The notes: generated from the sequence alone by a model not told the origin. A stretch of DNA of 64,000 nt from an uncultured bacterium (GCA_963716985.1 OY970323.1:864001-928000); one strand, 5' to 3'; positions 16,376 through 58,903 are shown, counted from the stretch's first letter. Program-made: numbers and translations.

Positions 16376-16422
16376 TGGGGCAACCAGGACTTGAACCTGG
16401 GACCGACGGGTTATGAGTCCGC
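16376..16422 (-). other. att core: 3' half of tRNA(CAT; Met/Ile2)
   Basis: Reverse strand GCGGACTCATAACCCGTCGGTCCCAGGTTCAAGTCCTGGTTGCCCCA has the anticodon loop, T arm and 3' acceptor strand; no 5' half. Confidence 0.9.
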
Positions 16423-16528
16423 TGCACCCGCACCACTTCCCAGCAGCTAACTACTCAGAATCATAGCGGAAAGCATCCCTTTCCATCCATCGCGAACTAT
16501 CGTGATTTGTTGCTCTTTTTTGTATGCC

Positions 16529-16553
16529 AGTGGTCCACAAATGGTCCACGGAT
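16529..16553. repeat. Putative integrase arm-binding sites (TGGTCCAC x2)
   Basis: AGTGGTCCACAAATGGTCCACGGAT, 24/25 identical to 58754-58778. Confidence 0.7.
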
Positions 16554-17223
16554 TAATCTATGTACTCAAGATACCTTTTGGATCTAGCGATGAATAAAAG
16601 GTTCATATCGGACGCTCCTTTCTCTCATGCGAATCTATAGATTAAGAATTGCAGTTGCTGAGTATGTGAGTGTTGATTAGGTTTGATCTTTCGTGCTGAT
16701 AAAAAGGTAGGCGATTCCTTTGTAGATTTCATAGCGTTGTACGTTGTGTAGATGATCAGGAATGGACGGTATGGGTTTGCGAACCCCGGGATTGAGAAGA
16801 GGAAGTAGAAGACGTCCTATAGGATGATGAAAATTTTCGCTCATGTGCTCATCCCCCCAAGCAATAATACCGCCTTTACGAGTCACTCTCACAAATTCTC
16901 TCAACGCAATATCTGGATGACTGAACCTGTTGATTCCTCCCATGTGAAATAGTGCGTCGAAAGATTCATCAGCAAAGGGAAGATATTCGGCATTTGCCTG
17001 AATGAGAGGTATGTTTAGATCACCATGCTGCTTTCGGCATTGTTGCAACATGCACATGGAAAGATCGGCCGATAGGATTTGCGCCTCTTTCCCGAGTGCC
17101 TCGCGTAAGAGGGGCTGAAATACGCCGGATCCGGGAGAGACTTCAAGCAGCCGAATTCCCGGCTTTAGATTTAGTAGGGACATGATGTTTTTCCGTTCGC
17201 GCTGCATGTGAATGCCCGCTAGC

Positions 17224-19198
17224 CCGACTTTCCTAGTTACGAAATACAAAAATGAAAACATTCCCCCACAACTATGTTTGGGTCAATTTTTTTTGCGATA
17301 CGCTGTCACCCTAAAACAGTTGAGCCTTATCTTGCAGCCTGAGGATGTTTACCAGCTTTTGCTGGATTCCTGACATCCTTGTAAGCGTTGTCTCTGTTTT
17401 ATCTTTGGTTCCTTTGTGTTTGGCTAATTCGTAAGTATTTACAACCTCATTGATTCTTCCCAGCTCAGTCTCCAGCCGTTTGTATGATATATTGATTCCG
17501 GCTGCTGCAACTCTTCGCTGTAGCGTTTGCCGAAGAAGTAGCGCAATGGAACAGTATAAGGCGTGCACCTTAATATGAGCGTCTATCCAGTGATAAAGCG
17601 GCCACCAGGTCCCGGTAGCGCGATCCTTGGTTTTCTTGAATATGCCTTCCACCAAGTATTGGCTGCGATAAGCTTTGATAATCCTATCTGTATCCCATTC
17701 GTGCCTTGTCGTTACGATAATAGTCTTACCAAGATAAGTATCCTCCAGCTTTGCGAGGGCCTCTCTATCAATATGATATTGCAAAAATGGCACTCCTGTC
17801 GTGTCATCTAACGTTACCTCAGTTACTATTACACGGGAAAGAAACTGTCTGTGCAGTTTGTCCTTGCACTGATTCTCGATACTGGTCTTGGTGGGCTTTT
17901 TTCCCTTCGTCACGAGGCCATTCCGCCGATCATTCAATTTCTTTTGCAACTCTTGCAGCCCATCTATAGCGTGCGTGATATCGTTTTGTAATGTTTTGCG
18001 CTGAGTATCAAATAATTCCGGATTGTAGGTGGTTATTGTGGTGAGAAGTATGCCGCTCACGCGCTTCTTCTTTCGTAGGGCTTTGTTTCCAAGAAGATCT
18101 TTGTCCTGACAGGGTCGCAATACTCCGCTACTGTTAGAGATAGCGGCTAACTCTGTGTGCTCGCCAAGCTTGACCGAACCTACAAAATGAAGCTTCGCCA
18201 ATTTCAAGAGTTTAAAGTTGTCTTTCGAATTATTTCCCTTGTCAAAGATTATCGTTACTTCCGGCTTGCGTGACACTCCAAAGGTGATTTTCAGGAACTT
18301 GTCGAATCTACCAATAACATCCAGAAACTCCTTAGCGTCGTTCCGGTTACCCTCATATACATCATAGTAAAGAGGTATTTGACCGTCGGCGGCGCAAAAG
18401 AGTGAATAGCTGACCTGGCGTAGATTGTCCTGGCCCTGCTTATTCTTGCCTCGCTTGGCAATAGAGCATCGTTCATTGAATGTGTCGATAAAAGTATAGT
18501 AGTTGGTGCCGTCATAAGAAATTGATGCCGGATCGATGTTTTCTCTGGTAATGACACCCTTAAGAATGGTCGTCCAGATCTGTAGGCATTCTTCGTGACC
18601 AAACCGTCGCATATGATCCCAGAATCTCTGAGAACAGAGGCTATCGGCAGAAGCTTGGGGAACATATCGCACAAGTGCAGTTTCACGGAACCACTGCCAC
18701 ATTGAATTTTTGCTGCTGGCCTGAATCGCTCTATTGAGTGCTGCAATGAGTATATACTGTCCAATCGTCAGTCCTTGTGATCGTTTCATGCAAATATTAT
18801 CGATAATCGCAATGACCTCGGCCCGTCGAGCTTCAAGCCACAGAGCGGTTATAATGCCCCACTGGAATACCTGTGCAAACAATGGCTTGCGTCCCGAGCC
18901 CTCCACCGCTCTTAGAATATCCTCTGCCTTCCCTAAATACTTTTGCCACACCCGACGTGGCTTCCCATCAACTCTACGCCATTCGCAGGCGTAATAGTAC
19001 TTATGACCATTTATTACCTTAGCTTCCACCTGAGCCATACGACTCCTATTCTTATAGGATTTCTATTTTAGGGGGACACCATACTGGAAAGTCAAGGTAA
19101 AAAATTTAGGGTGACAATATTAGTCGCAAAAAAATGCCCTCAGATAATCCTGTAAGGGCAAATTAGGATGAATGAGTTTGTCTAACTAGGAAAGTCGG
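17224..19198 (-). mobile_element. IS1634-family insertion sequence
   Basis: Perfect TIRs CCGACTTTCCTAGTTA (17224-17239 and 19183-19198). Duplicated GCTAGC at 17218-17223 and 19199-19204; the target is palindromic, so a 4-bp CTAG TSD is also possible. Confidence 0.9.
17311..19038 (-). CDS. IS1634-family transposase
   Basis: YYYACEWRRVDGKPR..QKYLG, YDGTN, RGKNKQ, GNRND, IFDKG, YRSQYLVEGIFK. Confidence 0.9.
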   Translation of the reverse strand: MAQVEAKVINGHKYYYACEWRRVDGKPRRVWQKYLGKAEDILRAVEGSGRKPLFAQVFQWGIITALWLEARRAEVIAIIDNICMKRSQGLTIGQYILIAALNRAIQASSKNSMWQWFRETALVRYVPQASADSLCSQRFWDHMRRFGHEECLQIWTTILKGVITRENIDPASISYDGTNYYTFIDTFNERCSIAKRGKNKQGQDNLRQVSYSLFCAADGQIPLYYDVYEGNRNDAKEFLDVIGRFDKFLKITFGVSRKPEVTIIFDKGNNSKDNFKLLKLAKLHFVGSVKLGEHTELAAISNSSGVLRPCQDKDLLGNKALRKKKRVSGILLTTITTYNPELFDTQRKTLQNDITHAIDGLQELQKKLNDRRNGLVTKGKKPTKTSIENQCKDKLHRQFLSRVIVTEVTLDDTTGVPFLQYHIDREALAKLEDTYLGKTIIVTTRHEWDTDRIIKAYRSQYLVEGIFKKTKDRATGTWWPLYHWIDAHIKVHALYCSIALLLRQTLQRRVAAAGINISYKRLETELGRINEVVNTYELAKHKGTKDKTETTLTRMSGIQQKLVNILRLQDKAQLF

Positions 19199-19394
19199 GC
19201 TAGCAGATAGCCAAAAATACTCTCGGCAATGTGGTATAGCGGTGCGATGCGGTCGTATACTCGATTCATTTTCAGGTTCTCTCCTGTAAGCGTAGGCGGA
19301 TATACAAGAGAGAGAATCTGATTTTGGGCTACATCGGGGATTTTTGCTTTAGTTGCAGGATCGCGAAGAATGTCTATCAGCCAACTTGGGTACA

Positions 19395-22300
19395 TCATAT
19401 AGGTCTTGGTAAAAAATAGTTGTGCATGAAGAATTCGATCGTTTTTTTAATCCACTCAGTTGGAGTATCGGGTATAACCACCCCCGATTTTTTCATTTTT
19501 TGCAGGGTGAGGCGGGCGGAAACCGTGGGCTCCTGTTCCCCCCAGCGATTTGATAGAAAGCCGGCAAGAGCTGCTGCCGGATCGTTCGGATCTTTCTTCA
19601 GATGCTCAAAAATGATTTGTTTCCACTCATCCATCGTACAAGAGGATAGGTGATAGCCTTTTTCTCTTGCGCAGGCAATCAGGGTTTCAGATTCCAAGGG
19701 ATCAGGATTTAGAATGTGAAATGTTTGATTTTTTTCGTTCGGGTCGATGGAAAGACGGGTGATGGCGCGGCTTGCAATATCAACTGGAATGATCTGTTCT
19801 GCAAAGTCGCTTCCTGGAATCTTGCCCATTTTGATGCAGGCTCGAACAAGTCCCCAATAAAAGTCGTTTTGTTGGCAGGCGCCTGATTGAGTATCGCCGC
19901 CTACGCGTCCTACCCTATAAATATTCACCGAAATATTGCGCTCTTTTGCTGCCAGCATTAGCTTTTCTGCGACCCACTTGCTCTGCAAGTAGCCCATTTC
20001 AAGCGCTTCCCCATGGCGGGGATACTCAGATTCTGTGAGTGCGCTGGACGATCCTTGATCCTCTCGTGTTAGCACATGTAAAGTGGAAATGTAATGCACT
20101 GGTTTTGTGTGGCCTGTAACGGCAAGGCGTAAAATTTCAACCGTTCCTAATACGTTACTCGCTCGCAATGCATTATAGGAATCGGCAAAATTTACCTGCG
20201 CTGCGCAGTGATAAATCGATCCCATGTTTTGAGCATAGAATTGGTATTGCTCTTCGCTTAGACCAAAATGGGGCTGATCGAGATCCCCCGGCACAACGAT
20301 GATGCGATCACAATCGATTTCGTCTGTTAAGCGATAATACGCTAAGTTCTTTCGAAGCCGCATTAGGCCTTCCAATGCGTTTTGGGCGCGCACAAGACAA
20401 TGGACGGTGTTGGAAGTGTGGAATAGAAGATCTCTGAGCAAGTAGACTCCTAGAAACCCTGTGGCTCCCGTGAGAAAGATGTTGGTTGGATTTTGGAGGG
20501 ATGGCTCCTTGGCGGTAATGGAAGCGTGGAGGAAAGAATCTTGTAGCATTTTTGCCCAAGTGATGCTTCTTTGGTTTATATTTTGTTGAGATTCAATGCT
20601 GGAAGCGAATTCTTCAACGGTCGGAAATTGGAAGAGGAGGCGTAGAGGGATTTCTTTTCCTAGACGATCGCTTAGCTTGAGGACGGCTTGCGCAGCGGAT
20701 AGCGAATGTCCTCCGAGATCAAAAAAATGATCCGTTTTACCAATCGATGATAGGCCCAGCACTTCGCTCCACGTCTTAATGATTTCTTGCTCAAGGGGCT
20801 GGCAGGCTGTGGATGGGGGAGGAGAGGCAGATTTTACGGTTGGGAGCGGCAACAATTTTTTGGCAATTTTTCCGTTAGGAGAGAGAGGAAAATGATCTAG
20901 AAAGAGAACGTGTGAGGGCACCATGTATTCGGGAAGTTTTTTCAATAAATAACTTTTGAGCGCGCTTGCTTGTTCTCTCAAATCGATCGGGCGATTGGTA
21001 AAGTGTTGCAATCCTTCGGTTTGCATCGACAGGGTTGGAGAATGTGTAGAGAGGATGGCATTGTACCGAAAGAGAAACATTTCGGTTTTATGCGTTGAGT
21101 GTTGAAGAAAAACTTCAGCTTGGACCTGGGGAATGTGTTTAAAGAGGGCAGGATCTATAAATAGCTCTCGTTCTTGATTTTTTTTATGTCCCACTTGTTT
21201 TTGCAGCTCTGCTACGGTCATTGTCTCTTTTGCATTCTCGAGAATGACGGATTGATAAAAAAGATCCATGAGGGCTAAATTGCGCAAGTCGCCCAGAAAA
21301 ATCGAGCCGCTCGAAGTTAAGAGAGATGCAGCTTTGTTCAGAACGTCAAACAGATATTCGATGCTGGGAAAATATTGCACAATTGAGTTTAAGATCACGA
21401 GATCAAAGGTTTCGTTCTCGAAGGGAGAAAAATCGGGGGCTGCGCATTGAAATAATCGAACGCTTTTTTGGTTGATGGAAGTGGCAGGAATGGCGTTGGA
21501 GATGAAGGATAGCGCCTTGGATGAGATGTCTGTTCCTATATAGAGATCGGTGTGCATCGCCAAACGAAAAAGAAGCATCCCCGTTCCGCATCCGATTTCG
21601 AGGATTTTTTTGGGTTTTAGTTTGAGGATTTTCTCTATTTTCTCATCCACCCACTCCTGCATTGCTTCTTCAGAATAAGCGTTGCCCGTATAGCTGCTGT
21701 TCCATCCCATCGCAGGAGTGGGGTGATTTGCGCTATAGGTGGTGTCAAAGACCGTTTGCCAATGATGGATGCGCTCTTGTTCCTGCGAGCGCGTATTGGA
21801 AGAAACGACATAAGCTGTAAGTGTCTGATCGTGCGCTGCAACCGTTGCAGATTGAATGCCTGGATACTCCAGTAGAGCTTGCTCAATCTCTCCCAATTCA
21901 ATCCGTACGCCCCTCATTTTGACTTGGTCATCAACTCTTCCTAGAAATTCGATTTCTCCATTTTGCCAATACCTGGCAAGATCTCCCGTTTTATATAATG
22001 TCTGCCCTGGAAGGAATGGGTTAGGGATAAATTTTTTCCTCGTGAGTTCCTCTCGGTTCAGATAGCCGAGTCCTACCCCTACGCCTCCTATGTATAACTC
22101 TCCGGAGACGCCGATCGGAACTGGCTGCATTTGGGAGTCAAGGATATAAATCTGCGTATTGGCGATGGGTCTACCAATCGGTATGACCTGCTTTTGAGTC
22201 TTTTTCGAGCAATCCCAAAACGTCACATCGATCGAAACTTCGGTAGGGCCATATAAATTATGTAATTGAGCATGGCTATTTTTTTTAAAATGGTTTGCGA

Positions 22301-24557
22301 GTTCGTAGGAAAGCGCCTCACCGCTGCAAAAGACAAGGCGCAAAGAGGGGCAATGGCTAACCTGCGATAAAAAGAGCATCAGCATGGAGGGGACAAAATG
22401 GAGAGTTGTGACTTTGTATTGTTGGATACAGCAGGCAAGCAGGGCAGGATCGCGGTGGATGCCTGGGGCAGCGATAATGAGCTCTGCGCCCGTGATGAGT
22501 GGCCAGAAAAATTCCCACACGGAGACATCAAAGCTGCAAGAAGTTTTTTGCAATACTCTATCATCGGGGGTTAGTTGATATTCTTGTTGCATCCATAAGA
22601 GTCGATTGCAAATGCCTCGATGGGGAATCATGGCTCCATTCGGCTTTCCTGTTGAGCCTGAAGTATAAATCACATAGGCAAGGCTTATCGGCTGGGCTGT
22701 GCATAGCGGGTTCGAAATTATCCCATTTGCAGGGGACACGCTTGTATCAATCGTGTGTAGAGGGAGCTTGGAAATCCATGAAGGAAGTTCTCGGTTATAG
22801 AGAAGAAGGGGCGTTTTACTATCTTCAATCATGAACGAGACTCTTTCTTCCGGATACTCCGTGTCGAGCGGAAGATATGCGCCGCCGGCTTTTAGAATCG
22901 CTAAAAGACTAATTACTTGTTCTACGGATCTAGGCATGTATACGCCAACTACAACGTTGGGTTTTACCCCCTTGTCAATGAGTTCGTGGGCGAGAAGATT
23001 TGCGCGCCTATTTAACTGCTCATAGCTCAAAGAAAGTCTCTCGTCGGTTACGGCAATTTTGGAGGGCGTTTTTGCCACTTGCTCTTCCACATACTGCGAG
23101 AGCGTCTTAGAGAATGAAAAGTCAACTTCCGTTTGGTTCCAATCAAAGAGCATTTTTCGTAGCTGTCCCTTGCTAAGAAAAGAGACTTCACCAACGCTTA
23201 AGTTAGGATTTGCTGCGATTGTTTCTAATACGGCCTGGTAGTGGTGCAGCATCGCCTCGATTGTATGTTCCGAAAAAAGTTCGGCGTTGTACTCAATTCC
23301 TACTTGATTTTCATAGATGTTGAGCAAAAGATCGAACTTGCAAGTGCCGTTATGAATCTCCATCGGCTCAATTTTTAGCCCCGGCTCATCCACTTTGGGA
23401 ATCGGTTGATTTTGCAAGACAAACATGACTTGGAAAAAAGCAGAGGTATTTAATTCTCGCTTCGGCTGAAGGATCTCGATAAGTCGTTCAAAAGGAATAT
23501 CTTGATGCTGATAGGCAGCTAGTGATTTTTTCTTTATTTGCGCTAATAAGTCCAGAAATGGGAGATCGGAATGGAGCTCTGATCGGATGACTAAGGTATT
23601 GGCAAAGAAGCCGATGAGATCGGATAGCTCGACTCGATTTCGATTCGCTACCGGCACTCCTATAAAAATAGTGTCCGCGTCTGAATAGCGGTGCAAGAGC
23701 AGTTTCCACGCGGCGAGCAATACCATGAAGAGGGTTGCTTCTTCTTGCGTTGACACTTGAGTTAATTTTTCTATTAATTCGGCCGGATAAGAGACGAGCT
23801 TTCTTGCGCCTTTATTGGAGAGCATAGCAGGGCGCGGGTAGTCAATGGGAAGTGTCAAGGGAGGAAAATCGCCTGCAAGCTCCTCTTTCCAATAAGCGAT
23901 TTGTTTATCTAGAATGGCCCCTCTGAGCCACTCTTTTTGCCATACGGAAAAATCGCTATATTGGATCGACAGCGGAGGCAACGGATCGGGCAAATTTTGA
24001 GAATAGGCTTGCAGAAGAGTTGTGACTTCTTTGATGATCAGTCCCAAAGACCAACCGTCAGAGATGATGTGATGCATGGTCCAAAGCAAAATATGATCTT
24101 CTTTATTGAGTCGGATCAATCGGACTCTAAATAGGGGCCCGGTCTCCAGATCAAACGGGCGAATGGTTTCCTCTCGAGCAATCTCTTCAGCTCTTTGTTC
24201 GTCGGATACACTTTCTATGGGCAGATCCACTTCTCGAGAAGTTTGAATCATTTGCATCGGTTCGCCATCTTTGCGTGTAAACGTAGTGCGCAACGATTCG
24301 TGACGCTGCACGATGCGAGAGAGCGCTTTTTGTAGAAGCTGAGGATCGATCGCTCCTCGAATGCGGACGGCATCGTGCATGTTGTAAACAGAAGAGCCAG
24401 GGACAAGTTGCTCTAAAAACCAAAGCCGCTGCTGGGAAAAAGATAGAGGAGCAAACTGGGAAGCGGGTTTTTTAGGGATTTTATCTATACGCAATTTGCC
24501 TTCTGCAAGTTTTGCGAGAAGCTCTTTTTTCGAGTTTGACAATGCGTGAATATTCAT
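19395..24557 (-). CDS. NRPS terminal module C-A(Ser)-NMT-PCP-R
   Basis: HHIISDG; YTSGSTG; Ser-type code DVWHFSLIDK; GWNSSY..LEIGCGTG..NSIVQYFP; GGHSL; FLTGATGFLG and GYLQSKW (reductase). Confidence 0.93.
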   Translation of the reverse strand: MNIHALSNSKKELLAKLAEGKLRIDKIPKKPASQFAPLSFSQQRLWFLEQLVPGSSVYNMHDAVRIRGAIDPQLLQKALSRIVQRHESLRTTFTRKDGEPMQMIQTSREVDLPIESVSDEQRAEEIAREETIRPFDLETGPLFRVRLIRLNKEDHILLWTMHHIISDGWSLGLIIKEVTTLLQAYSQNLPDPLPPLSIQYSDFSVWQKEWLRGAILDKQIAYWKEELAGDFPPLTLPIDYPRPAMLSNKGARKLVSYPAELIEKLTQVSTQEEATLFMVLLAAWKLLLHRYSDADTIFIGVPVANRNRVELSDLIGFFANTLVIRSELHSDLPFLDLLAQIKKKSLAAYQHQDIPFERLIEILQPKRELNTSAFFQVMFVLQNQPIPKVDEPGLKIEPMEIHNGTCKFDLLLNIYENQVGIEYNAELFSEHTIEAMLHHYQAVLETIAANPNLSVGEVSFLSKGQLRKMLFDWNQTEVDFSFSKTLSQYVEEQVAKTPSKIAVTDERLSLSYEQLNRRANLLAHELIDKGVKPNVVVGVYMPRSVEQVISLLAILKAGGAYLPLDTEYPEERVSFMIEDSKTPLLLYNRELPSWISKLPLHTIDTSVSPANGIISNPLCTAQPISLAYVIYTSGSTGKPNGAMIPHRGICNRLLWMQQEYQLTPDDRVLQKTSCSFDVSVWEFFWPLITGAELIIAAPGIHRDPALLACCIQQYKVTTLHFVPSMLMLFLSQVSHCPSLRLVFCSGEALSYELANHFKKNSHAQLHNLYGPTEVSIDVTFWDCSKKTQKQVIPIGRPIANTQIYILDSQMQPVPIGVSGELYIGGVGVGLGYLNREELTRKKFIPNPFLPGQTLYKTGDLARYWQNGEIEFLGRVDDQVKMRGVRIELGEIEQALLEYPGIQSATVAAHDQTLTAYVVSSNTRSQEQERIHHWQTVFDTTYSANHPTPAMGWNSSYTGNAYSEEAMQEWVDEKIEKILKLKPKKILEIGCGTGMLLFRLAMHTDLYIGTDISSKALSFISNAIPATSINQKSVRLFQCAAPDFSPFENETFDLVILNSIVQYFPSIEYLFDVLNKAASLLTSSGSIFLGDLRNLALMDLFYQSVILENAKETMTVAELQKQVGHKKNQERELFIDPALFKHIPQVQAEVFLQHSTHKTEMFLFRYNAILSTHSPTLSMQTEGLQHFTNRPIDLREQASALKSYLLKKLPEYMVPSHVLFLDHFPLSPNGKIAKKLLPLPTVKSASPPPSTACQPLEQEIIKTWSEVLGLSSIGKTDHFFDLGGHSLSAAQAVLKLSDRLGKEIPLRLLFQFPTVEEFASSIESQQNINQRSITWAKMLQDSFLHASITAKEPSLQNPTNIFLTGATGFLGVYLLRDLLFHTSNTVHCLVRAQNALEGLMRLRKNLAYYRLTDEIDCDRIIVVPGDLDQPHFGLSEEQYQFYAQNMGSIYHCAAQVNFADSYNALRASNVLGTVEILRLAVTGHTKPVHYISTLHVLTREDQGSSSALTESEYPRHGEALEMGYLQSKWVAEKLMLAAKERNISVNIYRVGRVGGDTQSGACQQNDFYWGLVRACIKMGKIPGSDFAEQIIPVDIASRAITRLSIDPNEKNQTFHILNPDPLESETLIACAREKGYHLSSCTMDEWKQIIFEHLKKDPNDPAAALAGFLSNRWGEQEPTVSARLTLQKMKKSGVVIPDTPTEWIKKTIEFFMHNYFLPRPI

Positions 24558-38854: not shown

Positions 38855-38855
38855 T

Positions 38856-43741: not shown

Positions 43742-43748
43742 GGTGATT

Positions 43749-44015: not shown

Positions 44016-44030
44016 CTGTTGAAATCCATC

Positions 44031-44129: not shown

Positions 44130-44288
44130 TTAGTTGCGCCAAACTTGCAATAAATTCTAATCATTTTCATAGATCCTCTAAATGCCAATCCAGTGAAGTT
44201 TCTCACCGACGCCATTTTTCGTTCCAACAGTTTGCGATAAAATTCAAACATGTACAACTAATCTCGTGCTATAACAATAGGAGGAGGC

Positions 44289-46143: not shown

Positions 46144-46259
46144 TCCACATTCAAGCATCGCTTTTAAAACTTTCGACCGAGGCCATTTTTAATGGCGATG
46201 CTTTGCCATAAAATACGGTTATTTAATTCAAACTGCGAGCAACGCAGAAGGAGGACGAC

Positions 46260-46559: not shown

Positions 46560-46567
46560 GTCGTAAG

Positions 46568-50590: not shown

Positions 50591-50602
50591 AAGCCAATCT
50601 CC

Positions 50603-52525
50603 TTAGATCGTTCGGAATACATCTTGATTTCCTCCGGATCTTCGAGAAGAAAACGCATGCATAGCATTCGCTTTCAATTGGTCATTGCCTTTGAATGCAT
50701 GATCGAGACAGATAAATCTTTCGGGATCGGTTGCTGCAACAGCTTCAATGAACTCTCTTGTAATTTCCGATTCCAGACAGATCATCAGCACACCATCTCC
50801 AATAGAATAGACTGTTTTTCCAGCTATTTGCTGTTTCTCGATTTTTGCAGTAGGTAGATAGCCTGATTTCAGAAGCAATTCATAAAGAATGTCTTCTTGA
50901 GACGCCTTGGGATCGATATGAGGGATATGTCCTTCAAGCTTAAGGAGTAGTTCGTTTATAGTTATTTGAGAGGTTGGTTCCCATATCTTGAAGTTGGATT
51001 TATCGAGTTTTAAGACTTTAAAGCCTAAATCGAGATTTGGTTGATCCCCCATCTCTTGCTTGATTTTGTTAATCACCCGGCGGATTCTCTCTTTTCCTAT
51101 ATCTGCAATTGTAGTGTAACCGGCTTTATAGGCATCAGATTCTGGTGCGCATGGTTCTGGCAGTTGGACCATGATGAATTTTCGGTTGCCAGCATCTTCT
51201 TTATTCATATCCAAAACAGCATGGGCAGTAGTGCTCGAACCAGAGAAAAAGTCTAAAATAATATCATCTTTTCCAGTGGCGCCTTGCTCAATCAAAATTT
51301 TCAGCAAAGAAATTGGTTTGGGAAAGTCAAAAAACTTGCCCTCCAATAAGGATCGGACTTCTCTACTTCCGTTTAAAGTATATCCCACATCTTCTGCCAA
51401 AACTGATGAAAATCCAGTTTGATTACTTGATAATTCAGATAAAAATTTCTTTTCTCTTGGCCTGCCGTCTTGTTTTTTGGGAAAAATAATCCGATTATCT
51501 TTTATTTTTTCTTGTAATGTTTGATGAGAGTATCGCCATCCACTATCTTGGGGGGGAGCAAATTTCCATCCAGTTTTTGGATCTTCTATTTTAAAATGAA
51601 GGTTAGGTCTTTGAGAGGCATTTGCCAGTCCAAGTATACTATTGCTCATCCATGCTCCTCTCGGGTCATTATCAGGATTAGTATATTTTGACAGATCAAT
51701 GTCTTTTCCTCGAAGTGCGGAGGTTTCAGATCTCTTTGAATAAACCACAATGTATTCATGATCAATTGAAGCGTTACTTTGATTGCGGCTATCTACAATT
51801 TGTCGACTTTTCCAAATGAAATTTCCTATGAAGTTCTCCTCTCCAAATACCATATCGCAAAGTTTTCTTAGGTTAACCATTTCGTTATCATCAATTGAAA
51901 TGAATATTGTCCCATCTTCGCGAAGTAAATTTCTTGCTAAATACAGGCGTGAATACATCATATTCAGCCACTTGGTATGAAAGCGGCCTTCGTTAGCGGT
52001 ATTTGTGGAAAATTTCTTTCCCTTGTCGTCAACGAATCCAGCATATGCAAGATAAGTGTCGAGAGATTCTGCAAAGTTATCGGGGTAGATAAACTCTTTT
52101 CCAGTATTGTAAGGAGGATCGATGTAGATCATTTTGACTTTACCGAAATAGGACTTCTGAAGCAGTTTCAGCACTTCAAGATTATCGCCCTCGATAAAGA
52201 GATTTTCAGTAGTGTCGAAATTAACAGATTCTTCTCGGAATGGCTTTAGAGTTGCAAGAGATGGTTGCTGAATAATCTTTAAGCATTCCTTTTTTCCAGG
52301 CCAATCCATCCCATAGCGTTCTTTACGGCCCTCAAAAAGATCGCTAAAGGTTCCGAGATCGGCTTTTAGTTTTTCAAAATCGATGGATTCAATCAGGTTG
52401 CCTTTTTCATTTAGAGTCTCAGTAAAAACAGAAGGGAAAAGAGCTTTAAGTCTTTTTATTTTTTCAGAATCTATAGTCATAGATTTTAAATCTATTTTGC
52501 TTTGTAAATTTGTGCCTGTATTCAT
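50603..52525 (-). CDS. mod: Type III DNA methyltransferase Mod subunit
   Basis: IEGDNLEVLK, IDPPY, FPKP, DFFSGSSTT. Confidence 0.95.
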   Translation of the reverse strand: MNTGTNLQSKIDLKSMTIDSEKIKRLKALFPSVFTETLNEKGNLIESIDFEKLKADLGTFSDLFEGRKERYGMDWPGKKECLKIIQQPSLATLKPFREESVNFDTTENLFIEGDNLEVLKLLQKSYFGKVKMIYIDPPYNTGKEFIYPDNFAESLDTYLAYAGFVDDKGKKFSTNTANEGRFHTKWLNMMYSRLYLARNLLREDGTIFISIDDNEMVNLRKLCDMVFGEENFIGNFIWKSRQIVDSRNQSNASIDHEYIVVYSKRSETSALRGKDIDLSKYTNPDNDPRGAWMSNSILGLANASQRPNLHFKIEDPKTGWKFAPPQDSGWRYSHQTLQEKIKDNRIIFPKKQDGRPREKKFLSELSSNQTGFSSVLAEDVGYTLNGSREVRSLLEGKFFDFPKPISLLKILIEQGATGKDDIILDFFSGSSTTAHAVLDMNKEDAGNRKFIMVQLPEPCAPESDAYKAGYTTIADIGKERIRRVINKIKQEMGDQPNLDLGFKVLKLDKSNFKIWEPTSQITINELLLKLEGHIPHIDPKASQEDILYELLLKSGYLPTAKIEKQQIAGKTVYSIGDGVLMICLESEITREFIEAVAATDPERFICLDHAFKGNDQLKANAMHAFSSRRSGGNQDVFRTI

Positions 52526-53802
52526 TAAAAACCCTCTTCTTTATCTTGGTTTTTTGTTCTTTTGTGTTTTTTTAGACTAATATCTCCGAGCCATTCTTTA
52601 AAAACTTTTACGAATAAATTAATTTTGAATTTTAAATTGCCAATTTTAGTTTTCAGTTTATTTTGTTCTGAGAAAAATTGCTGCACATTGATTGTTTTAA
52701 CGTGAGAAAACTTACGGTTCGCACCATAATTTAGACAAATTATTGTTCCAGGGCATAAAGGGAGATTCCATCCTGTAACTTGCTGACTAAGTTCTTTATG
52801 AGTACCTTGACAAAGGGCTAATCGCAGCTCAATGCTCTCAATCGGGTCGCATGTAACGCAAATTACTTCTCTTCTTTTTGAGTCACCTTTCATGCTGCCA
52901 CTAGAAAATCCATATATCGCAAAATGCATGAGTTTTATATCTAGTAAATCGCTATTGGGCTTGAAGGCCCAATTATATTGTTTTACCCACATTTCTAGTC
53001 GTCTGATTTGATATAAATTTAATAATCTCTTTAAACCGCGAAGTTTTTTGTTTTCGTGTTTTAAATGTTTAAGACGAAAAATATGATTTATAAAACGTCT
53101 GTGTAGAATTAGCCTTGTGAAGGGCGCGTCGGAATTAATAAAATGTTGGTTATGATAAGTAGCAAACAAACAGTCATAGAATTTTTCTGCCTGCAACCAC
53201 GTTTCATTCGCAATCTTATCTTCAATCCACTCTGGGCACTCCCACAAAACAGGAAAGACAACTAAACGATCCCATAAAAGATTCCACTCAATTAATTTAA
53301 GATGATTCTCTTTAGGATCACAAATCATTTTTCCAACACGATAAAAGGTGTTGTTTAGGAGTTCAGTTGACTTTTTGTTGCCAACAAAATTACAACTTTC
53401 CTGATACAATGTATTGAGATTTTCTTTTGAAAAGAACTCGTGAGATCTGATGTTTTGAAGCATTTCTTTGGATATTTTATCAATTTGATCGGCCAGCTTT
53501 TTTCCATCAGAAAATGCAGCTAGAGGAATGGAAACTCCCTTATAAATAGTGATTTTTTCCCAGATCGTTCCCTTTCCAATGCGCTCAAGGAACCCTTCTA
53601 TTGTAAAACAAGGATCGAATCCGTTTTCAAAAATAGGATTTAAATTACACAATAAGTCAGAGAGTTGATCATAAATTGCTTCCTGTCCTTTTTTAGATAT
53701 AGGATCTACGACATTATCATCGAAGAGAACTAGAGGTGAAATGACATCTGTCTTATCCGCAGAAGGGTAAGGGTTTTTAATATTTTTAGTTTCTATGCTC
53801 AT
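52525..53802 (-). CDS. Hypothetical AT-rich protein with PIN-like motifs
   Basis: 425 aa; LVLFDDNVV, FLE, DLLDIKLMHFA, ICVTCD; 1-nt overlap with mod. Confidence 0.5.
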   Translation of the reverse strand: MSIETKNIKNPYPSADKTDVISPLVLFDDNVVDPISKKGQEAIYDQLSDLLCNLNPIFENGFDPCFTIEGFLERIGKGTIWEKITIYKGVSIPLAAFSDGKKLADQIDKISKEMLQNIRSHEFFSKENLNTLYQESCNFVGNKKSTELLNNTFYRVGKMICDPKENHLKLIEWNLLWDRLVVFPVLWECPEWIEDKIANETWLQAEKFYDCLFATYHNQHFINSDAPFTRLILHRRFINHIFRLKHLKHENKKLRGLKRLLNLYQIRRLEMWVKQYNWAFKPNSDLLDIKLMHFAIYGFSSGSMKGDSKRREVICVTCDPIESIELRLALCQGTHKELSQQVTGWNLPLCPGTIICLNYGANRKFSHVKTINVQQFFSEQNKLKTKIGNLKFKINLFVKVFKEWLGDISLKKHKRTKNQDKEEGF

Positions 53803-53828
53803 TTTACCTTTTCAAATCCATACATTCT

Positions 53829-56666
53829 TCAAATCAGTTTCCACCGGATGGTGAAAAGAGTTTGTTCCTCAACATTTTGTTTTAACCTAGCCTGGGTTTG
53901 ATCGATCAGGCCATCTTTTTGTCTATCGATTCCTCTGACAGCTTCATCATACTCTCTCCATGCGGAGTCCCTCTTTTTCTCGAGTGCGCGTAAATTTCTC
54001 TGGATTGCCAACTTTTCAGGAAAATTGAGAGCTGTCCGCACCTGTTTTTTTAACTCCGTAATTTCGGTATCATAATCATCCAGTGTAGTTTTTAGCGACT
54101 GCCGTTTATCGTTGGCCCAACGGTCAAGTTTGTCCATCTCTTCTTGGAAGAAAACGCCGCTTTTCTCAGATATAGTGGAAAGGAGATCGGCTTTCATGCG
54201 CTGATAGGCTAAATCGATGAGATGATTAGGAATAGAGGAACAGCCTCGAACATCGGCCGGTAGATTAAAGAGTCGACGAGCTTGGTCTGCATCTAGTTCG
54301 TTGCCATTATCAGTTAAAGCGATAGAGAGAATGTGGTCTTCGGAGTCAAGCGTATTGATGATTGTCAATTGTTTCACTGCAAGGATGCCGGAATGTCCAA
54401 TAAGAGGCTCCAGGGCTGATATTTTCCTTCCATGCCCTGTGTAGTAGAAAGTAAGCTCGGCTAGGGGGAGCTGCTTTTCTTGCGCTGAGCTAAGAACCCA
54501 GTGTGCAAGAGGGTGCTGGCTTCGATAATGGTAGCCAGTAGCGTCTTGTCGTTTGAGTGTGTAGAGGCCGGTTTGAATTCCCGGCTGAGGAGATGTTTTC
54601 AGTGTAAATGCGAGAGCAGCTTCATTGAAAACAGCTTGTTCTTTGAGGATGTGTTGCGTGGTGTCCCAGAGCAGAGCCTCGTAGAGACTGAGAGATTCAG
54701 TCGTTTTTTCTTTATAGATGTTAAGTTTTTCTGCCACCTCCGCATCAAAATTCTCCAAAAGCTTTTGTCGTGTGGACCGCATATTCTCGATAATCTCGGC
54801 ACTGAGGTCGTGTTGCAAAGCGTCGAAGGCTGATTGGATGTCTTCTTTTTTTCTGCAGGTTTGGTAAATGTCGGCTATCCGTTTTTCAAAGTCGATTCCA
54901 GATTCAATACTACCAAGCACTTCGTCACTGGCTCCAAAAACACCGTTGAAAAGACGGAATTTTTCAGAAAGAAGTTGATAAACCCGTTGATCAGCGGCGT
55001 TGTTTTTGTTGAGGAAATTTACTACTACAACATCGTGTTTTTGGCCGTATCGGTGACATCTGCCAATTCGCTGCTCAATTCTCTGGGGATTCCAAGGAAG
55101 GTCATAGTTGACTACGAGGGAGCAGAATTGGAGGTTGATTCCTTCAGCTGCTGCCTCAGTGGCGATCATGATTTTGGCTTTTTCGCGGAAATAGTCGACA
55201 AGAGCTGCTCGGGTGTCGGCAGTTTTTGAACCTGTAATTTTATCTGTGCCACTAAAGCGAGATTCCCATTCGGTGTAAATACTTCGTGATTGTCCATCGC
55301 TATTAGAGCCGTTAAAAAGAACGAGATCATCAGTATATCCATTTTCTGAAAGGAGCTTGACAAGGTAGTTTTGAGTTCGGCGAGATTCAGTAAAAATGAT
55401 TGCTTTTTCTGCTCCACCGAGCTCTCCTGTCATTTGAAACCCTATTTTCAGGGCTTTGAGAAGCGATTCTCCCTTTGCGTTCTGAGTGATTTTCATGGAG
55501 AGGTCAAAAAAGCTTCGCAGTTCTAGGATCTCTTCTTGTATAATTTGTCGCTCTTCTGACGTGAGGGGCTGGGGTAGTTCGTCATCATCGATTTCTAATT
55601 CATCTGCCAATTCTTCAAATCTCTCAAAATCTTCTTCAAAAGATAGATCGGATTTTTTGTCGTTTTTAAGACGCTTTTCGAGCTTGTTGATGAGAGACTC
55701 TAAGGCCCCGGCAATGGCAAATGTCGACGATGCAAGTAATCTGCGTAAAACGAGTGTCATCAAGCTACGTTGACTTGACGGAAGAGCCTGAAGATTGGGG
55801 CGACAAAGATAGTCTGAAATCATGTCGTAAAGAATTTCTTCATCTTCAGTGGGTATAAATTCTTCAGTGTGAGCTTTCCTCTCGGTATATTGGATGTATT
55901 TAAGCACTTGGCGTCGAAGGGTGCGCTTACAAATCTTATTGAGACGGTTTTTCAGATCATCGAAATTATCTTCAGAAGTAAGCCTTGCGAACTGAGATCG
56001 GAAGCTTTTTAGGTCGCCAAAAGTGTGTACGTCAATGAAACTGACTAGCCCATAAAGCTCGAGCAGTGAGTTTTGAAGAGGTGTGGCAGTGAGAAGGAGT
56101 TTGGGCGCATGTTCTGTTGCCTGTTTTAACTCTCGAGCAACCTTGTTCCCAGTTTTATAGACATTGCGGAGGCGATGGGCTTCATCTATAACGATGAGGT
56201 CCCATTGAACAGATTTGATGAAGTCTGCTTTATTGCGAGCGAAGGAATAAGAGCAGATGACGATTTCAGAAACATCGAAGGGATTGCATTCGCCTTCTTT
56301 AATGACTTTTTTAAAAGAGGAAGTTTCCAAGATGATAGAGGGGAGATAAAATTTTTCTTGGAGTTCTTGATGCCATTGCTTTCGTAAGCTTGAAGGAAGA
56401 ATAATTAAAAGTTTTCGTTTTCGCTCAGCCCATTTCTGAGAGAGGACGATCCCGGCTTCAATGGTTTTCCCAAGACCCACTTCATCGGCAAGGATGGCAC
56501 CTTTAGAAAGAGGAGAGCGAAAAGCAAATAAAGCTGCGTCTACTTGGTGAGGGTTTAGATCGACCTGAGAATCCATTAAGGCTGCTGTAAAACGTTCCAC
56601 GCTATCCGATGGACAACGTCGGAGCAATTCATAAGCAAAAAGCTTTGCGTGGTAGTCCGTAATCAT
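53829..56666 (-). CDS. SNF2-family helicase
   Basis: LNPHQ, LADEVGLGKT, DEAH, LTATP, EGINLQ, EQRIGRCHR; start at the ATGA overlap. Confidence 0.93.
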   Translation of the reverse strand: MITDYHAKLFAYELLRRCPSDSVERFTAALMDSQVDLNPHQVDAALFAFRSPLSKGAILADEVGLGKTIEAGIVLSQKWAERKRKLLIILPSSLRKQWHQELQEKFYLPSIILETSSFKKVIKEGECNPFDVSEIVICSYSFARNKADFIKSVQWDLIVIDEAHRLRNVYKTGNKVARELKQATEHAPKLLLTATPLQNSLLELYGLVSFIDVHTFGDLKSFRSQFARLTSEDNFDDLKNRLNKICKRTLRRQVLKYIQYTERKAHTEEFIPTEDEEILYDMISDYLCRPNLQALPSSQRSLMTLVLRRLLASSTFAIAGALESLINKLEKRLKNDKKSDLSFEEDFERFEELADELEIDDDELPQPLTSEERQIIQEEILELRSFFDLSMKITQNAKGESLLKALKIGFQMTGELGGAEKAIIFTESRRTQNYLVKLLSENGYTDDLVLFNGSNSDGQSRSIYTEWESRFSGTDKITGSKTADTRAALVDYFREKAKIMIATEAAAEGINLQFCSLVVNYDLPWNPQRIEQRIGRCHRYGQKHDVVVVNFLNKNNAADQRVYQLLSEKFRLFNGVFGASDEVLGSIESGIDFEKRIADIYQTCRKKEDIQSAFDALQHDLSAEIIENMRSTRQKLLENFDAEVAEKLNIYKEKTTESLSLYEALLWDTTQHILKEQAVFNEAALAFTLKTSPQPGIQTGLYTLKRQDATGYHYRSQHPLAHWVLSSAQEKQLPLAELTFYYTGHGRKISALEPLIGHSGILAVKQLTIINTLDSEDHILSIALTDNGNELDADQARRLFNLPADVRGCSSIPNHLIDLAYQRMKADLLSTISEKSGVFFQEEMDKLDRWANDKRQSLKTTLDDYDTEITELKKQVRTALNFPEKLAIQRNLRALEKKRDSAWREYDEAVRGIDRQKDGLIDQTQARLKQNVEEQTLFTIRWKLI

Positions 56667-57391
56667 TCGAGCACACCATTTGCGGCAAGCCGATAGGAAC
56701 AAAGGCTGCAAGAGGGGTTGGGTTCTGGCGGGTGTTCTGTTGTTAGGGCGGAATGAATCTCAAGTAATTTAGGCTCTATCCAGCTGTCATCGCCAAGATA
56801 GGGGATGACTGAGATTTCGAATTTCAGGCATTCGCCAAATTCAGGAACGTCTTTCTTGCCATTGCAGTAGATGAAATAGCCGGTGTGTGAGACTTGAAAA
56901 CCGTTTTTCCTGAATAGCCATTGGTAAATTTCCATTTGTCTTTTGTAGCTAAGCTGCCAGTCGGCATCTAAATTGATTTCGCCCGCCTTGCTGGTTGCTT
57001 TGTAGTCTACGATGATCAGTTCTCCGGAGGGAGTGATCCAGACGTCATCGATGGCCCCCGTAACTAAAAATCGGGTCGGTTCGTGTAAATAGGAAATGCC
57101 CTTCTGATTCTTTCGCCATTCATCCAGTTTTTCATGTTGGAAGGGGATTGCGTCAATCTTGTGCTTGATCATCAGGGGATGAGCCTCTCCCTTTGCTCGA
57201 TAGAGGTCGAATTCCTTTTTCAGAAGATGGTCAACAGCAGAGTTTAGGTTGAACGGAAGTCCTCCAGGTTGCGCAACTCCAAGTTTGCGATCGAGGTAGA
57301 AGCAAAAGGGACATTCACAAAAAAGCTCGATCTTTGAGCGGCTTAATTTGAATGGTTTTGTGTCTTGAGGATCAAAGCCCTTTCTTTTCAT
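56663..57391 (-). CDS. PD-(D/E)XK nuclease, RecB/Cas4-like
   Basis: LSRSK..CECPFC, GAIDD, IVDYK, QMEIY, C-terminal CSLC. Confidence 0.85.
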   Translation of the reverse strand: MKRKGFDPQDTKPFKLSRSKIELFCECPFCFYLDRKLGVAQPGGLPFNLNSAVDHLLKKEFDLYRAKGEAHPLMIKHKIDAIPFQHEKLDEWRKNQKGISYLHEPTRFLVTGAIDDVWITPSGELIIVDYKATSKAGEINLDADWQLSYKRQMEIYQWLFRKNGFQVSHTGYFIYCNGKKDVPEFGECLKFEISVIPYLGDDSWIEPKLLEIHSALTTEHPPEPNPSCSLCSYRLAANGVLE

Positions 57392-57600
57392 TTTCTTCCA
57401 TTTTAAGTTGTTGATTTAACGTATAATAAGATAGCAGGATTGCAAATAAGATGATATTGTGATTTTTCGTCAATTAAACTATTTTATTTGAATTCCGCAA
57501 GATGGCTGTTTTAGGGAAAATGACTGAAATGCAGAATATTTTTAGGATGTTCTAAATCAATGTGTAAGGGGTGACCTCTGCATCCAAGCGGATGCGCATT

Positions 57601-58695
57601 CTATTTTTTATTATTGAATAATTTCTCATTCAGTTTCGCTGCTGCTGAGTAGATGTGCGCGTTGGAAAGATGGGCATATCTTTTGGTCATTTGGACTGTT
57701 TTATGACCGAGCAGGGTCCCGATTTCTAGCAGGCTCGCTTGGTTCATGGCCAGGTAGGAAGCGGCTGTATGACGAAGATCGTGAAAGCGGAAGTTCGCGA
57801 TGCCTGTATTTCTCAGAGCGGTATTCCAAGCGGATCGGATGTCGAGAGGTTTAGATTGCGAGTGAGGGGCGGGGAATATAAGAGCATTTGTGGCTTGATT
57901 GATGTATCTTGCGCGCAGAAGATCCAGCGCCTTCCCAAGCAGTGGAATATATCGGCGCTCCCCATTTTTGGTGGTTTGTAAGAGGATTGCGCCTTTCACG
58001 AGATCGACATCGCTCCATTTGAGATTCATGATTTCGCTTCTTCTCATGCCTGTCGAAAGGGCCAGTATTACAATTGGGTAGAGTCCTTTTGATTTACTTT
58101 CTCGGCAGGCTTGAATGAGCTTTGCTTTCTCATCCTCATTGAGAAATCGCGTTCTGCCATTGGAGATTTTCGGTTTTGAGATTTTCATGACGGGATTTTC
58201 TTGGACCCATTCCCAATCTTTAACGGCGATCGCAAAGGCGTGAGAGAGACTGGCAAGATAGCGGACCACGGTTGTAGAAGAACGGAGCTTGCCTTTGCAA
58301 GTCAGCCCAGCAAGGAGCTCGTCTCGCTTTTGTACAACGAGATTGGGTTTGATATCGGAAAGGAGGCAATGTCCCAGTTCTTGTTTCCACCAGAGAAGAT
58401 GCTGGCGGACGTTTCTCGCGTTTTTTGGCTTTGAAGGAAGAACTTGTTCGATATAGCGATCAATCAATTCGGCTAAAGTGTTTTTGCTGCCAGGTTTGGC
58501 ATACTCGTACTTGCCTTGTTCAACGGCTGATTCAGTGTCGCGTTTCCATTTCATGGCGAGATTTTTGGAAGCGAACGATTGGATGAGGACGGGGTGTCCT
58601 TTGATGCGGACTCGGGCGCGGTAAGAAACCGTCCCGTCTTTGTGAATGCGTTTGTCGATGCCTTTCACGAGCTTACCTTTGTTATCAGTTTTCAA
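57601..58695 (-). CDS. int: Tyrosine integrase of the 42.5 kb island
   Basis: MRRSE, TKNG, HDLRH, LLGH, RY; TTG start ~160 nt from the att core. Confidence 0.95.
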   Translation of the reverse strand: MKTDNKGKLVKGIDKRIHKDGTVSYRARVRIKGHPVLIQSFASKNLAMKWKRDTESAVEQGKYEYAKPGSKNTLAELIDRYIEQVLPSKPKNARNVRQHLLWWKQELGHCLLSDIKPNLVVQKRDELLAGLTCKGKLRSSTTVVRYLASLSHAFAIAVKDWEWVQENPVMKISKPKISNGRTRFLNEDEKAKLIQACRESKSKGLYPIVILALSTGMRRSEIMNLKWSDVDLVKGAILLQTTKNGERRYIPLLGKALDLLRARYINQATNALIFPAPHSQSKPLDIRSAWNTALRNTGIANFRFHDLRHTAASYLAMNQASLLEIGTLLGHKTVQMTKRYAHLSNAHIYSAAAKLNEKLFNNKK

Positions 58696-58753
58696 AGGTT
58701 AGCTGCTGTTTGATGGCGGGGGATGGTGCTTCTATCGCCAATTGTTGTAGGCG

Positions 58754-58778
58754 AGTGGTCCACAAGTGGTCCACGGAT
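58754..58778. repeat. Putative integrase arm-binding sites (TGGTCCAC x2)
   Basis: AGTGGTCCACAAGTGGTCCACGGAT between int and the att core. Confidence 0.7.
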
Positions 58779-58856
58779 GCGGACCGAGCTTTTTTCTGGT
58801 TTGGTCGATTTGTCGCAACCAGCTCATTTTTAGACTTATGAAGCCAAAAATAAAAG

Positions 58857-58903
58857 TGGGGCAACCTGGACTTGAACCAGGGACCGACGGGTTATGAGTC
58901 CGC
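58857..58903 (-). other. att core: 3' half of tRNA(CAT)
   Basis: GCGGACTCATAACCCGTCGGTCCCTGGTTCAAGTCCAGGTTGCCCCA; no 5' half. Confidence 0.9.

What the first reader, a model, noticed from the sequence alone, without database searches (positions are those of the whole stretch)
16376..58903. 42.5 kb tRNA(CAT)-targeted island packaging a secondary-metabolite cluster with replication and defence modules
Seen: direct-repeat tRNA 3' cores, the same TGGTCCAC doublet inside both ends, an adjacent intact integrase, and an internal second integrase with rep. Known: tyrosine integrases use tRNA 3' cores and arm sites. Inference: an excisable, possibly replicating element that moves a complete PKS-NRPS pathway. 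No conjugation or capsid genes are present, so transfer would need a helper.
Basis: partly seen in the sequence, partly recalled or inferred. Interest (0 to 1): 0.72.

Follow-up and report, generated by a model that had tools for sequence, protein, structure and literature searches.

The report
Two-integrase chlamydial island carrying biosynthetic cluster
This is a real 42.5-kb mobile DNA island, one of several stacked behind one tRNA gene; it belongs to an apparently undescribed two-integrase island family that has recently moved between distantly related chlamydia-like bacteria, and this copy holds a natural-product gene cluster.

Summary
The boundaries are real, but both tRNA(CAT) copies in the window are 3' fragments. 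The only intact gene (probably tRNA-Ile2) lies 47 kb further right. This island is the third unit of a 111-kb tandem array; a same-genus relative has 4.9 kb there. The TGGTCCAC doublets sit at fixed distances from the core (103 and 153 bp) across six families. The 'internal second integrase with rep' is not a nested element. It is a backbone module (integrase, unknown gene, excisionase-like gene, phage-type initiator with phased repeats) facing the end integrase in 12 other elements. Backbone genes are 90-97% identical across genera or families whose core genes are about 60% alike, so transfer is recent. The layout resembles pipolins, without piPolB. The PAL-primed, AT-less PKS-NRPS cluster lies inside the att sites, but no other examined island carries it. 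A relative keeps an 89%-identical remnant outside the tRNA array. The cluster needs a host acyltransferase, and an IS1634 splits its methyltransferase. Excision, replication and the transfer route are not shown. The scan noted related tRNA(CAT) islands in two other genomes. Verdict: new variant of a known kind.

The parts
16376..16423 (-). Distal att core (attR-type): 3' half of tRNA(CAT), host-type T-stem allele
16424..16551 (+). Distal arm with TGGTCCAC doublet (16531, 16542), 153 bp from the core start
16677..17218 (-). 3' part of a SAM methyltransferase gene split by IS1634
17219..19203 (-). IS1634 (transposase 17311-19038); 100% identical copies at two other genome loci; no target duplication seen
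19204..19398 (-). 5' part (65 codons) of the split methyltransferase gene
19395..24557 (-). NRPS C-A(Ser-type code)-MT-T-R, reductive release
   Evidence: code-to-substrate mapping recalled
24554..25984 (-). Stand-alone acyl-CoA ligase / AMP-binding enzyme
25981..27702 (-). AT-less KS-ACP
27699..37676 (-). AT-less PKS-NRPS: ACP-KS-DH-KR-ACP-C-A(Val-type code)-T-E-C-T (last module has no A domain)
   Evidence: E domain and code read by motif (recalled)
37673..39824 (-). ABC-2 exporter (permease and ATPase)
39830..40525 (-). Phosphopantetheinyl transferase
40470..42833 (-). Thioesterase fused to a cyanobacterial-type aromatic amino acid ammonia-lyase (ASG motif intact)
42830..43270 (-). 146-aa hydrophobic ORF, first gene of the cluster
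43391..44128 (+). Two small paralogous ORFs (46-49% alike) and a remnant matching DNA at 9602-9699 inside a metallophosphoesterase gene
44192..44288 (+). Conserved left end and promoter region of the backbone module, with site CACYGACGCCATTTTT
44289..45434 (+). Second tyrosine integrase (int2), 55% identical to the end integrase, catalytic residues intact
45415..46143 (+). 242-aa conserved protein of no known family (possible regulator)
46163..46200 (+). Second, diverged copy of the module site, upstream of the excisionase-like gene
46260..46559 (+). 99-aa excisionase/AlpA-like winged-helix protein
46568..47614 (+). Phage-type replication initiator with 11 AACCA repeats, mostly 11-12 bp apart, at 46938-47090 (putative origin)
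47714..52525 (-). Type III restriction-modification Res and Mod
52525..57391 (-). 425-aa unknown ORF, DrmD-like SNF2 helicase, PD-(D/E)XK nuclease
57601..58695 (-). End integrase (intX), transcribed into the island, catalytic residues intact
58720..58856 (+). Proximal arm with TGGTCCAC doublet (58756, 58767), 103 bp before the core
58857..58904 (-). Proximal att core: 3' tRNA half with the same T-stem allele as the intact tRNA; followed by the far arm of the next island
1..16375 (.). Neighbouring older island of the same type that has lost its proximal end; carries TOTE primase, AbiL-like pair and a 95%-identical backbone module (13638-16330) cut inside rep
58905..64000 (.). Distal end of the next, 17.9-kb island, which has its own integrase, primase-helicase and different arm sites

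Best explanation
A site-specifically integrated element of a chlamydial island family, here called X-type. Inferred steps: (1) the end integrase binds the TGGTCCAC arm doublets and exchanges strands in the anticodon region of tRNA(CAT), probably tRNA-Ile2; the island restores the tRNA 3' half and displaces the old one to its far end. (2) Later elements entered the same tRNA, so this copy is now third in a tandem array and has a tRNA fragment at both ends. (3) An internal operon (second integrase, unknown gene, excisionase-like gene, phage-type initiator with an internal origin) most likely switches on excision and lets the circle replicate. (4) Two variable slots carry cargo: defence genes between rep and the end integrase, and here a 26.6-kb PAL-primed PKS-NRPS cluster between the far arm and the operon. 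Excision at these ends would take the cluster along. (5) The circle reaches other chlamydiae without transfer genes of its own, most likely by DNA uptake or vesicles during co-infection of one host cell, or through a helper absent from this genome. Shown: ends, array, backbone conservation, selection, recent cross-family spread. Inferred: arm binding, crossover point, excision, replication, route.
For: A same-genus genome is collinear on both sides and has 4.9 kb where this genome has 111 kb. intX relatives occur in 21 of 401 sampled genomes, in six families; 20 of 23 intX loci have the doublet 103-104 bp before a tRNA(CAT) core, 14 of them at the intact tRNA. The doublet is in 19 of 103 family genomes, with the reversed control at 0. 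13 of 16 other genomes with a close rep also have intX; in 11 genomes (12 elements) both lie on one contig, converging. Both integrases keep R-K-H-R-H-Y in all 19 copies aligned and form sister clades; dN/dS is 0.04-0.14 for the backbone genes. The window's int2 and rep are 94% and 90% identical to a genome of another family. The sister island's int2 is 97% identical to a second genome of that family, where a neighbouring core gene is 58%. The top structural matches of the 99-aa protein are excisionases and related proteins (6HN7, 2KVV, RdfS, Tn916 Xis, P2 protein 4LHF; Z 4.4-5.2). rep has 11 phased repeats against 2.1 expected, 0 of 2000 codon-resampled controls reaching that number. The T-stem allele differs between proximal and distal cores as an anticodon-side crossover predicts.
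Against: No circle or empty-site junction was shown. 2 of 10 other complete X-type islands lack the internal module, so it is not needed for every copy to exist. The fold matches are only middling (Z 5.2 at best; Foldseek had no hit at E 0.001). rep has only a weak PHROG match (E 0.004) and none in Pfam or NCBIfam; the phased repeats are few in two homologues. The cluster was found in no other island examined. No transfer machinery was found. The island's GC content equals the genome's (0.444).
Confidence: 0.78

Rival explanations
1. The island is real, but the biosynthetic cluster was dropped into a resident copy in this lineage (by IS-driven or homologous recombination) and has never travelled on the island. 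This is compatible with the island mechanism and rivals only the 'vehicle for the pathway' claim.
For: None of 33 island-region stretches from other genomes has PKS, NRPS, PPTase or thioesterase hits. G013 keeps 5.6 kb of the cluster at 89% DNA identity beside an IS1634-like fragment, on a 31.7-kb contig without core or doublet. At 42.5 kb this copy is far above the 7-29 kb of the other complete X-type islands.
Against: The cluster fills the usual cargo slot, with no IS at either of its ends. G013 has X-type remnants at its own tRNA(CAT), so the island could have delivered the cluster there too. The same-genus genome lacks both island and cluster.
Confidence: 0.4
2. The copy is now a fossil: the ends look intact but it no longer excises, as for several decayed members of the family.
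For: It is buried third in the array; its proximal core is followed by another island's arm rather than the tRNA 5' half. The left neighbour lost its proximal end, and frameshifted members exist elsewhere. No junction reads were seen.
Against: Every backbone gene is full length with intact catalytic residues; both arm spacings match the family exactly; a second intX, 89% identical, could act in trans.
Confidence: 0.3
3. The mobile unit is larger or variable: intX can pair the proximal end with the next distal arm at genome 863231 (59.6 kb), or the integrase at the intact tRNA can excise longer stretches of the array.
For: Three distal arms and two proximal arms of one type lie in direct orientation with near-identical doublets.
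Against: Complete single units of 7-26.5 kb occur on their own in other genomes, so core-to-core units are the normal mobile form.
Confidence: 0.15
4. int2, the 242-aa gene, the excisionase-like gene and rep form a separate small element nested in the island, with its own att sites.
For: The module has sharp homology ends and three copies in this genome. A related 16-nt site occurs twice in it. Two complete islands lack it.
Against: No target repeat flanks it. Wherever an X-type end was in view it lay inside an X-type island, pointing at the intX end. The repeated sites precede two promoters and do not enclose rep.
Confidence: 0.1
5. It is a phage satellite (PICI-like) packaged by a helper phage.
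For: Integrase, excisionase-like gene and phage-type initiator are satellite-like.
Against: No terminase, capsid or packaging gene was recognised in the island; no portal family in the genome; sizes range from 7 to 42 kb rather than fitting a capsid; no relative of the excisionase-like gene in viral contigs.
Confidence: 0.08

Closest known systems
tRNA-targeted genomic islands in tandem arrays, anticodon-centred attP (Islander; PMC4383910, passages read)
   Same: Tyrosine integrase beside a regenerated tRNA; displaced 3' fragment marks the far end; tandem members each have their own integrase and fragment.
   Different: Islander lists only 4 arrays of three or more among 3919 islands; this array has six cores and at least three arm types. 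The class does not imply a second integrase or a replication module.
Pipolins of Gammaproteobacteria (PMC11551731, passages read)
   Same: tRNA 3' integration; one integrase in all complete copies (IntSXT) plus a dispensable second one (IntP2) followed by an excisionase near the replication gene; defence cargo; about 20 kb; tandem pairs; no conjugation or viral genes; recent horizontal transfer.
   Different: No piPolB here; a phage-type initiator with phased repeats takes its place. The two integrases are sister paralogues (55%) rather than two families. Hosts are chlamydia-like bacteria, and cargo includes central metabolism and a PKS-NRPS cluster.
Tycheposons of Prochlorococcus (bioRxiv 10.1101/2020.12.28.424599, passages read)
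   Same: Inward-facing integrase at a tRNA, optional replication module, adaptive cargo, accretion of older material away from the tRNA, no conjugation.
   Different: Defined by their own integrase lineage and hallmark profiles, which were not tested; one integrase; primase or helicase replication; 10-20 kb; vesicle and capsid enrichment shown there, untested here.
Known chlamydial islands: Pam100G (PMC548262) and the Protochlamydia naegleriophila islands (PMC5010888); passages read
   Same: tRNA-linked islands in environmental chlamydiae; one (PnaD_GI4) is near a tRNA-Met and has an integrase.
   Different: Pam100G is at tRNA-Gly, has 17-bp repeats and an F-type conjugation operon. No conserved backbone, arm sites or cross-family spread is described in the passages read. 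Whether PnaD_GI4 is X-type was not tested.
Island-borne PKS-NRPS clusters such as the high-pathogenicity island and the colibactin island (recalled; HPI seen only in the search listing)
   Same: A hybrid PKS-NRPS cluster inside a tRNA-targeted tyrosine-integrase island, mobilised only with help.
   Different: Different pathway: ammonia-lyase starter, AT-less KS domains, reductive release. No named product matches in NCBIfam.

Membership tests
tRNA-targeted tyrosine-integrase island (Islander type) | Tyrosine integrase adjacent to the att end | tested here: met
   57601-58695, PF00589, R-K-H-R-H-Y
tRNA-targeted tyrosine-integrase island (Islander type) | tRNA gene and co-oriented displaced 3' fragment mark the ends (in arrays, each member has a fragment and an integrase) | tested here: met
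   Six co-oriented cores, one intact gene; this unit has its own integrase
tRNA-targeted tyrosine-integrase island (Islander type) | Absent from relatives at the same locus | tested here: met
   Same-genus G001 is collinear on both flanks with 4.9 kb between them
tRNA-targeted tyrosine-integrase island (Islander type) | Excises to a circle | tested here: inconclusive
   Four runs, low-depth contigs only, no junction
Pipolin | Primer-independent PolB gene | tested here: not met
   No PolB family among the island's ORFs in Pfam
Pipolin | End integrase plus internal integrase-excisionase near the replication gene | tested here: met
Tycheposon | [quoted passage not shown] | tested here: met
Tycheposon | Tycheposon-specific integrase lineage and hallmark profiles | not tested
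   Profiles not held; the nearest non-chlamydial match found was a Legionella plasmid integrase at 47%
ICE / IME | Relaxase, with (ICE) or without (IME) VirB4 and coupling protein | tested here: not met
   No such Pfam family in the island; VirB4, VirD4, TrwC, MobP and MobQ families not found genome-wide; other relaxase families and a bare oriT were not tested
PICI / phage satellite | Packaging or capsid-redirecting genes (terS, cpm, capsid) | tested here: inconclusive
   None recognised by Pfam or PHROGs, but several island ORFs have no family
trans-AT PKS-NRPS cluster | KS modules without AT domains | tested here: met
   also in three orthologues
trans-AT PKS-NRPS cluster | Discrete acyltransferase gene in the cluster | tested here: not met
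   The only PF00698 match in the genome is about 400 kb away, at 1302064

The most novel reading that the evidence does not exclude
X-type islands are a self-replicating, conjugation-free gene shuttle of chlamydia-like intracellular bacteria in which two sister integrases divide the work. One integrates at tRNA(CAT). The other, co-expressed with the excisionase-like protein and rep, drives excision, resolves the replicating circle, or captures cargo at the conserved site that bounds the variable slot. The shuttle carries loads up to 42 kb, including a whole PKS-NRPS pathway that borrows the host's FabD, between families that meet inside one eukaryotic host cell.
Probability: 0.2. Interest if true: 0.78.

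Novelty: new variant of a known kind. Interest (0 to 1): 0.55.

Why it matters
Gene flow in environmental chlamydiae has been credited mainly to plasmids and an F-type secretion system (PMC7846284, passages). This family shows recent exchange across families by an element with neither, which makes the route of transfer between obligate intracellular bacteria directly testable with defined junction sequences. Its target is conserved across the order (32 of 41 genomes matched the core), so intX plus attP is a candidate integration tool for a group with few genetic tools. It also offers one explanation for the patchy biosynthetic clusters reported in chlamydiae (PMC9666466, passages). The class of object, a tRNA island with a biosynthetic cluster, is well known, which caps the score.

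Tried and rejected
Reads: 11 runs held 5-10% of the words of the island's right part, none on record as RNA. Four were laid; all were low-depth contigs and gave no near-arm-to-far-arm junction. One contig in run X3 joins rep-like DNA (46883) to the core (58857); the genome's own left junction explains this, and with 42 letters on the short side it cannot be told from an empty site. Context of the three orthologous clusters: their DNA was not obtained; the species-genome scan gave no result, and the metagenome scan returned 80 lyase loci, of which one (L066) was close and has the same genes as G013, so it is not independent. Viral contigs: 5 records match the doublet, none with a tRNA(CAT) core or backbone gene; no relative of the excisionase-like gene. 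rep has no match on plasmids; intX matches plasmids and phages only at 31-47%. The first fold model of the 99-aa protein was unusable (pLDDT 51); PDB sequence searches gave only chance rows. The 242-aa protein has unnamed look-alikes only. GC content does not mark the island. One core-gene row (26% identity) was translated on the wrong strand and was dropped. Two dN/dS rows were saturated and are not counted. The 45 bp left of the distal core match nothing informative among fetched loci. Rejected: a tRNA gene at 16376; the single octamer as significant. Literature searches that found no description of this family; one search found nothing for the cluster type. The library lacks most subscription papers, and supplements were not read.


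Full report
Setting. The window is positions 864001-928000 of a single-contig 2.07-Mb genome of 44.4% GC. No tool named the organism. 'Chlamydia-like' comes from earlier scan notes on this genome and from my own recognition of its gene content; families and genera are cited by tool codes.

The observation. The main correction is that neither repeat is a tRNA gene. The core occurs six times in the genome, all co-oriented within 111 kb: 858784, 863231, 880376 (window 16376), 922857 (window 58857), 940714 and 970034. Only the last is an intact tRNA. The other two CAT tRNAs look like initiator and elongator Met (features recalled), so the target is probably tRNA-Ile2; this is by elimination and untested.

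The array. Reading away from the tRNA: a 29.3-kb island of the same type with sugar-metabolism cargo; a 17.9-kb island with a different integrase (44% identical), a primase-helicase and other arm repeats; the 42.5-kb island of this finding; a 17.1-kb island of the same type that lost its proximal end inside rep; and a 4.4-kb remnant. The same-genus genome G001 is collinear up to the tRNA, carries 4.9 kb, and rejoins this genome just beyond the last core at 95% identity. Proximal cores of the two intact X-type islands carry one T-stem base-pair variant; the other four cores and the intact tRNA of G001 carry the other. That fits strand exchange on the anticodon side of the T-stem, Islander's site A (PMC4383910, passages).

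Arms. The doublet is found in 19 of 103 family genomes, the reversed control in none. Of the 30 genomic matches fetched (39 were listed), 19 had a core within 400 bp at the script's threshold and 24 by eye, including diverged cores. Distal doublets lie 152-154 bp after the core start; proximal ones 103 bp before it. intX relatives occur in 21 of 401 sampled genomes, in six families. 20 of 23 such loci have the doublet 103-104 bp before a core; the misses are one broken copy and two integrases only 61-65% identical. Arm-type binding is inferred from this fixed geometry and from established tyrosine-integrase biology.

Backbone. The module int2 / 242-aa gene / 99-aa gene / rep has three copies in this genome, each in an X-type island. 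Among 400 scored genomes, 16 others have rep at 60% identity or more over a long stretch. 13 of these 16 also have intX; in 11 genomes (12 elements) the two lie on one contig and converge. Two more have X-type arms with decayed genes, and one is on a 7-kb contig. Conversely, 5 of 18 genomes with close intX lack the module; two of those have intX on short contigs. Ten other islands could be read end to end: 7-26.5 kb, 8 with the module (three of them damaged) and 2 without. Kin are not independent, so I give no statistical test. All 8 intX and 11 int2 copies aligned keep six catalytic residues, and the two groups are sister clades (the tree warned of long branches among the outgroup rows). dN/dS is 0.04-0.14. 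The 99-aa protein folds confidently (pLDDT 83); its best matches are excisionase-type winged helices at Z 4.4-5.2, and 7 of 119 homologues weakly match HTH_17. rep resembles phage helix-turn-helix initiators and carries 11 phased AACCA repeats in its linker, against 2.1 expected. A related 16-nt site precedes int2 and the 99-aa gene; it is more likely an operator than an att site.

Recent transfer. The window's int2 and rep are 94% and 90% identical to G122, of another family, with 23% of fourfold sites differing. The sister island's int2 is 97% identical to G108 of that family (6% of fourfold sites), while a neighbouring core gene is 58% identical (66%). intX is 94% identical to G219, of another genus, where that core gene is 62%.

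Cargo. The cluster fills the slot between the distal arm and the module. It encodes a thioesterase-lyase fusion nearest to cyanobacterial PALs (E about 1e-187), a PPTase, an exporter, an AT-less PKS-NRPS, a KS-ACP, an acyl-CoA ligase, an NRPS ending in a reductase, and a methyltransferase split by a recently moved IS1634. Orthologues at 57-69% identity over the whole proteins lie on three metagenome contigs, judged by shared contig lengths. They share the AT-less junction, the A-less last module, the catalytic motifs and the adenylation codes, which I read as Val and Ser from recalled tables. A plausible product is an arylacryloyl-primed, polyketide-extended short peptide with D-Val and a methylated serine-derived aldehyde or alcohol; confidence is low. 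The lyase has x-His where the solved cyanobacterial PALs have Phe-Leu, so the starter is uncertain. The genome's only AT-family gene lies outside the island. Among 401 sampled genomes only G013 has a close lyase fusion (92%). It keeps five genes at 89% DNA identity (22-44% of fourfold sites differing in the four genes compared, against 62-74% for three core genes), lacks the PKS-NRPS genes, and holds the remnant outside its tRNA array. So the cluster has moved between genera, but the vehicle is unproven. None of 33 island-region stretches from other genomes has such genes.

Transfer route. VirB4, VirD4, three relaxase families and the portal family were not found in the genome; a ComEC-family gene was. 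Uptake or vesicles during co-infection, or a helper in other hosts, remain open. F-type systems exist on some chlamydial plasmids (PMC7846284, passages).

Comparison and verdict. It meets the tested criteria for a tRNA-targeted island in a tandem array. It is built like a pipolin (PMC11551731, passages) but fails membership for lack of piPolB, and shares the lifestyle of tycheposons. Six literature searches found no description of this family; subscription papers and supplements were not seen. Earlier scan notes report tRNA(CAT) islands in two other chlamydia-like genomes and a separate finding on the cluster itself; these are unchecked notes, not support. Novelty: new variant of a known kind. 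Interest 0.55.

Noticed in passing
G000:C1:940714-970107 (L008, L009): The newest X-type island carries a block of sugar and glycogen metabolism genes (phosphoketolase, acetate kinase, transaldolase, aldolase-PGI fusion, TIM, phosphorylase, PGM). Parts recur at 80-93% identity in X-type islands of G122, G159, G341 and near X-type ends in G399.
   Followed up: partly
window 58905-64000 and L007: A second island family at the same tRNA, with integrase, 403-aa gene, excisionase-like homologue and primase-helicase, and AGTGGTCTTT-type arms; also present in G013 and G159.
   Followed up: partly
G159:C1:212000-271700 (L223, L257, L224): A genome of another family has the same X-Y-X order of island types behind the same tRNA.
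   Followed up: partly
G000:C1:858784-863231 (L006); G001, G009, G354: A third end type in which identity to the tRNA stops inside the anticodon loop; small cassettes without an integrase recognised.
   Followed up: no
G223 C1 and C2 (L181, L184-L186): Distal-type doublets stand directly before very large ORFs of about 2800 aa, some without a nearby core, suggesting arm-bounded cargo left behind after rearrangement.
   Followed up: no
window 2042-7140: TOTE archaeo-eukaryotic primase-helicase and an AbiL/RloB pair in the left remnant island; both recur at 85-97% identity in other X-type islands.
   Followed up: no
window 40470-42833; P0002-P0005: Thioesterase-lyase fusion found in only three other proteins among 8000 scored; the lyase selectivity pair is x-His in all close relatives, unlike Phe-Leu of solved cyanobacterial PALs.
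   Followed up: partly
window 16377-16442: The distal arm plus core is called as a 67-68-nt tRNA-Met by ARAGORN here and in many relatives; a recurring annotation artefact.
   Followed up: yes
L176, L177, L179, L180: Four viral contigs share a near-identical arm-like doublet in a different conserved context, without the tRNA(CAT) core.
   Followed up: no
window 7873-9274 and 10154-11873: IS4/Tn5-like and IS66 elements with several near-identical copies genome-wide; the genome is IS-rich.
   Followed up: no
NZ_LR134418.1: The closest non-chlamydial relative of intX found (47%) is on a Legionella adelaidensis plasmid record.
   Followed up: no
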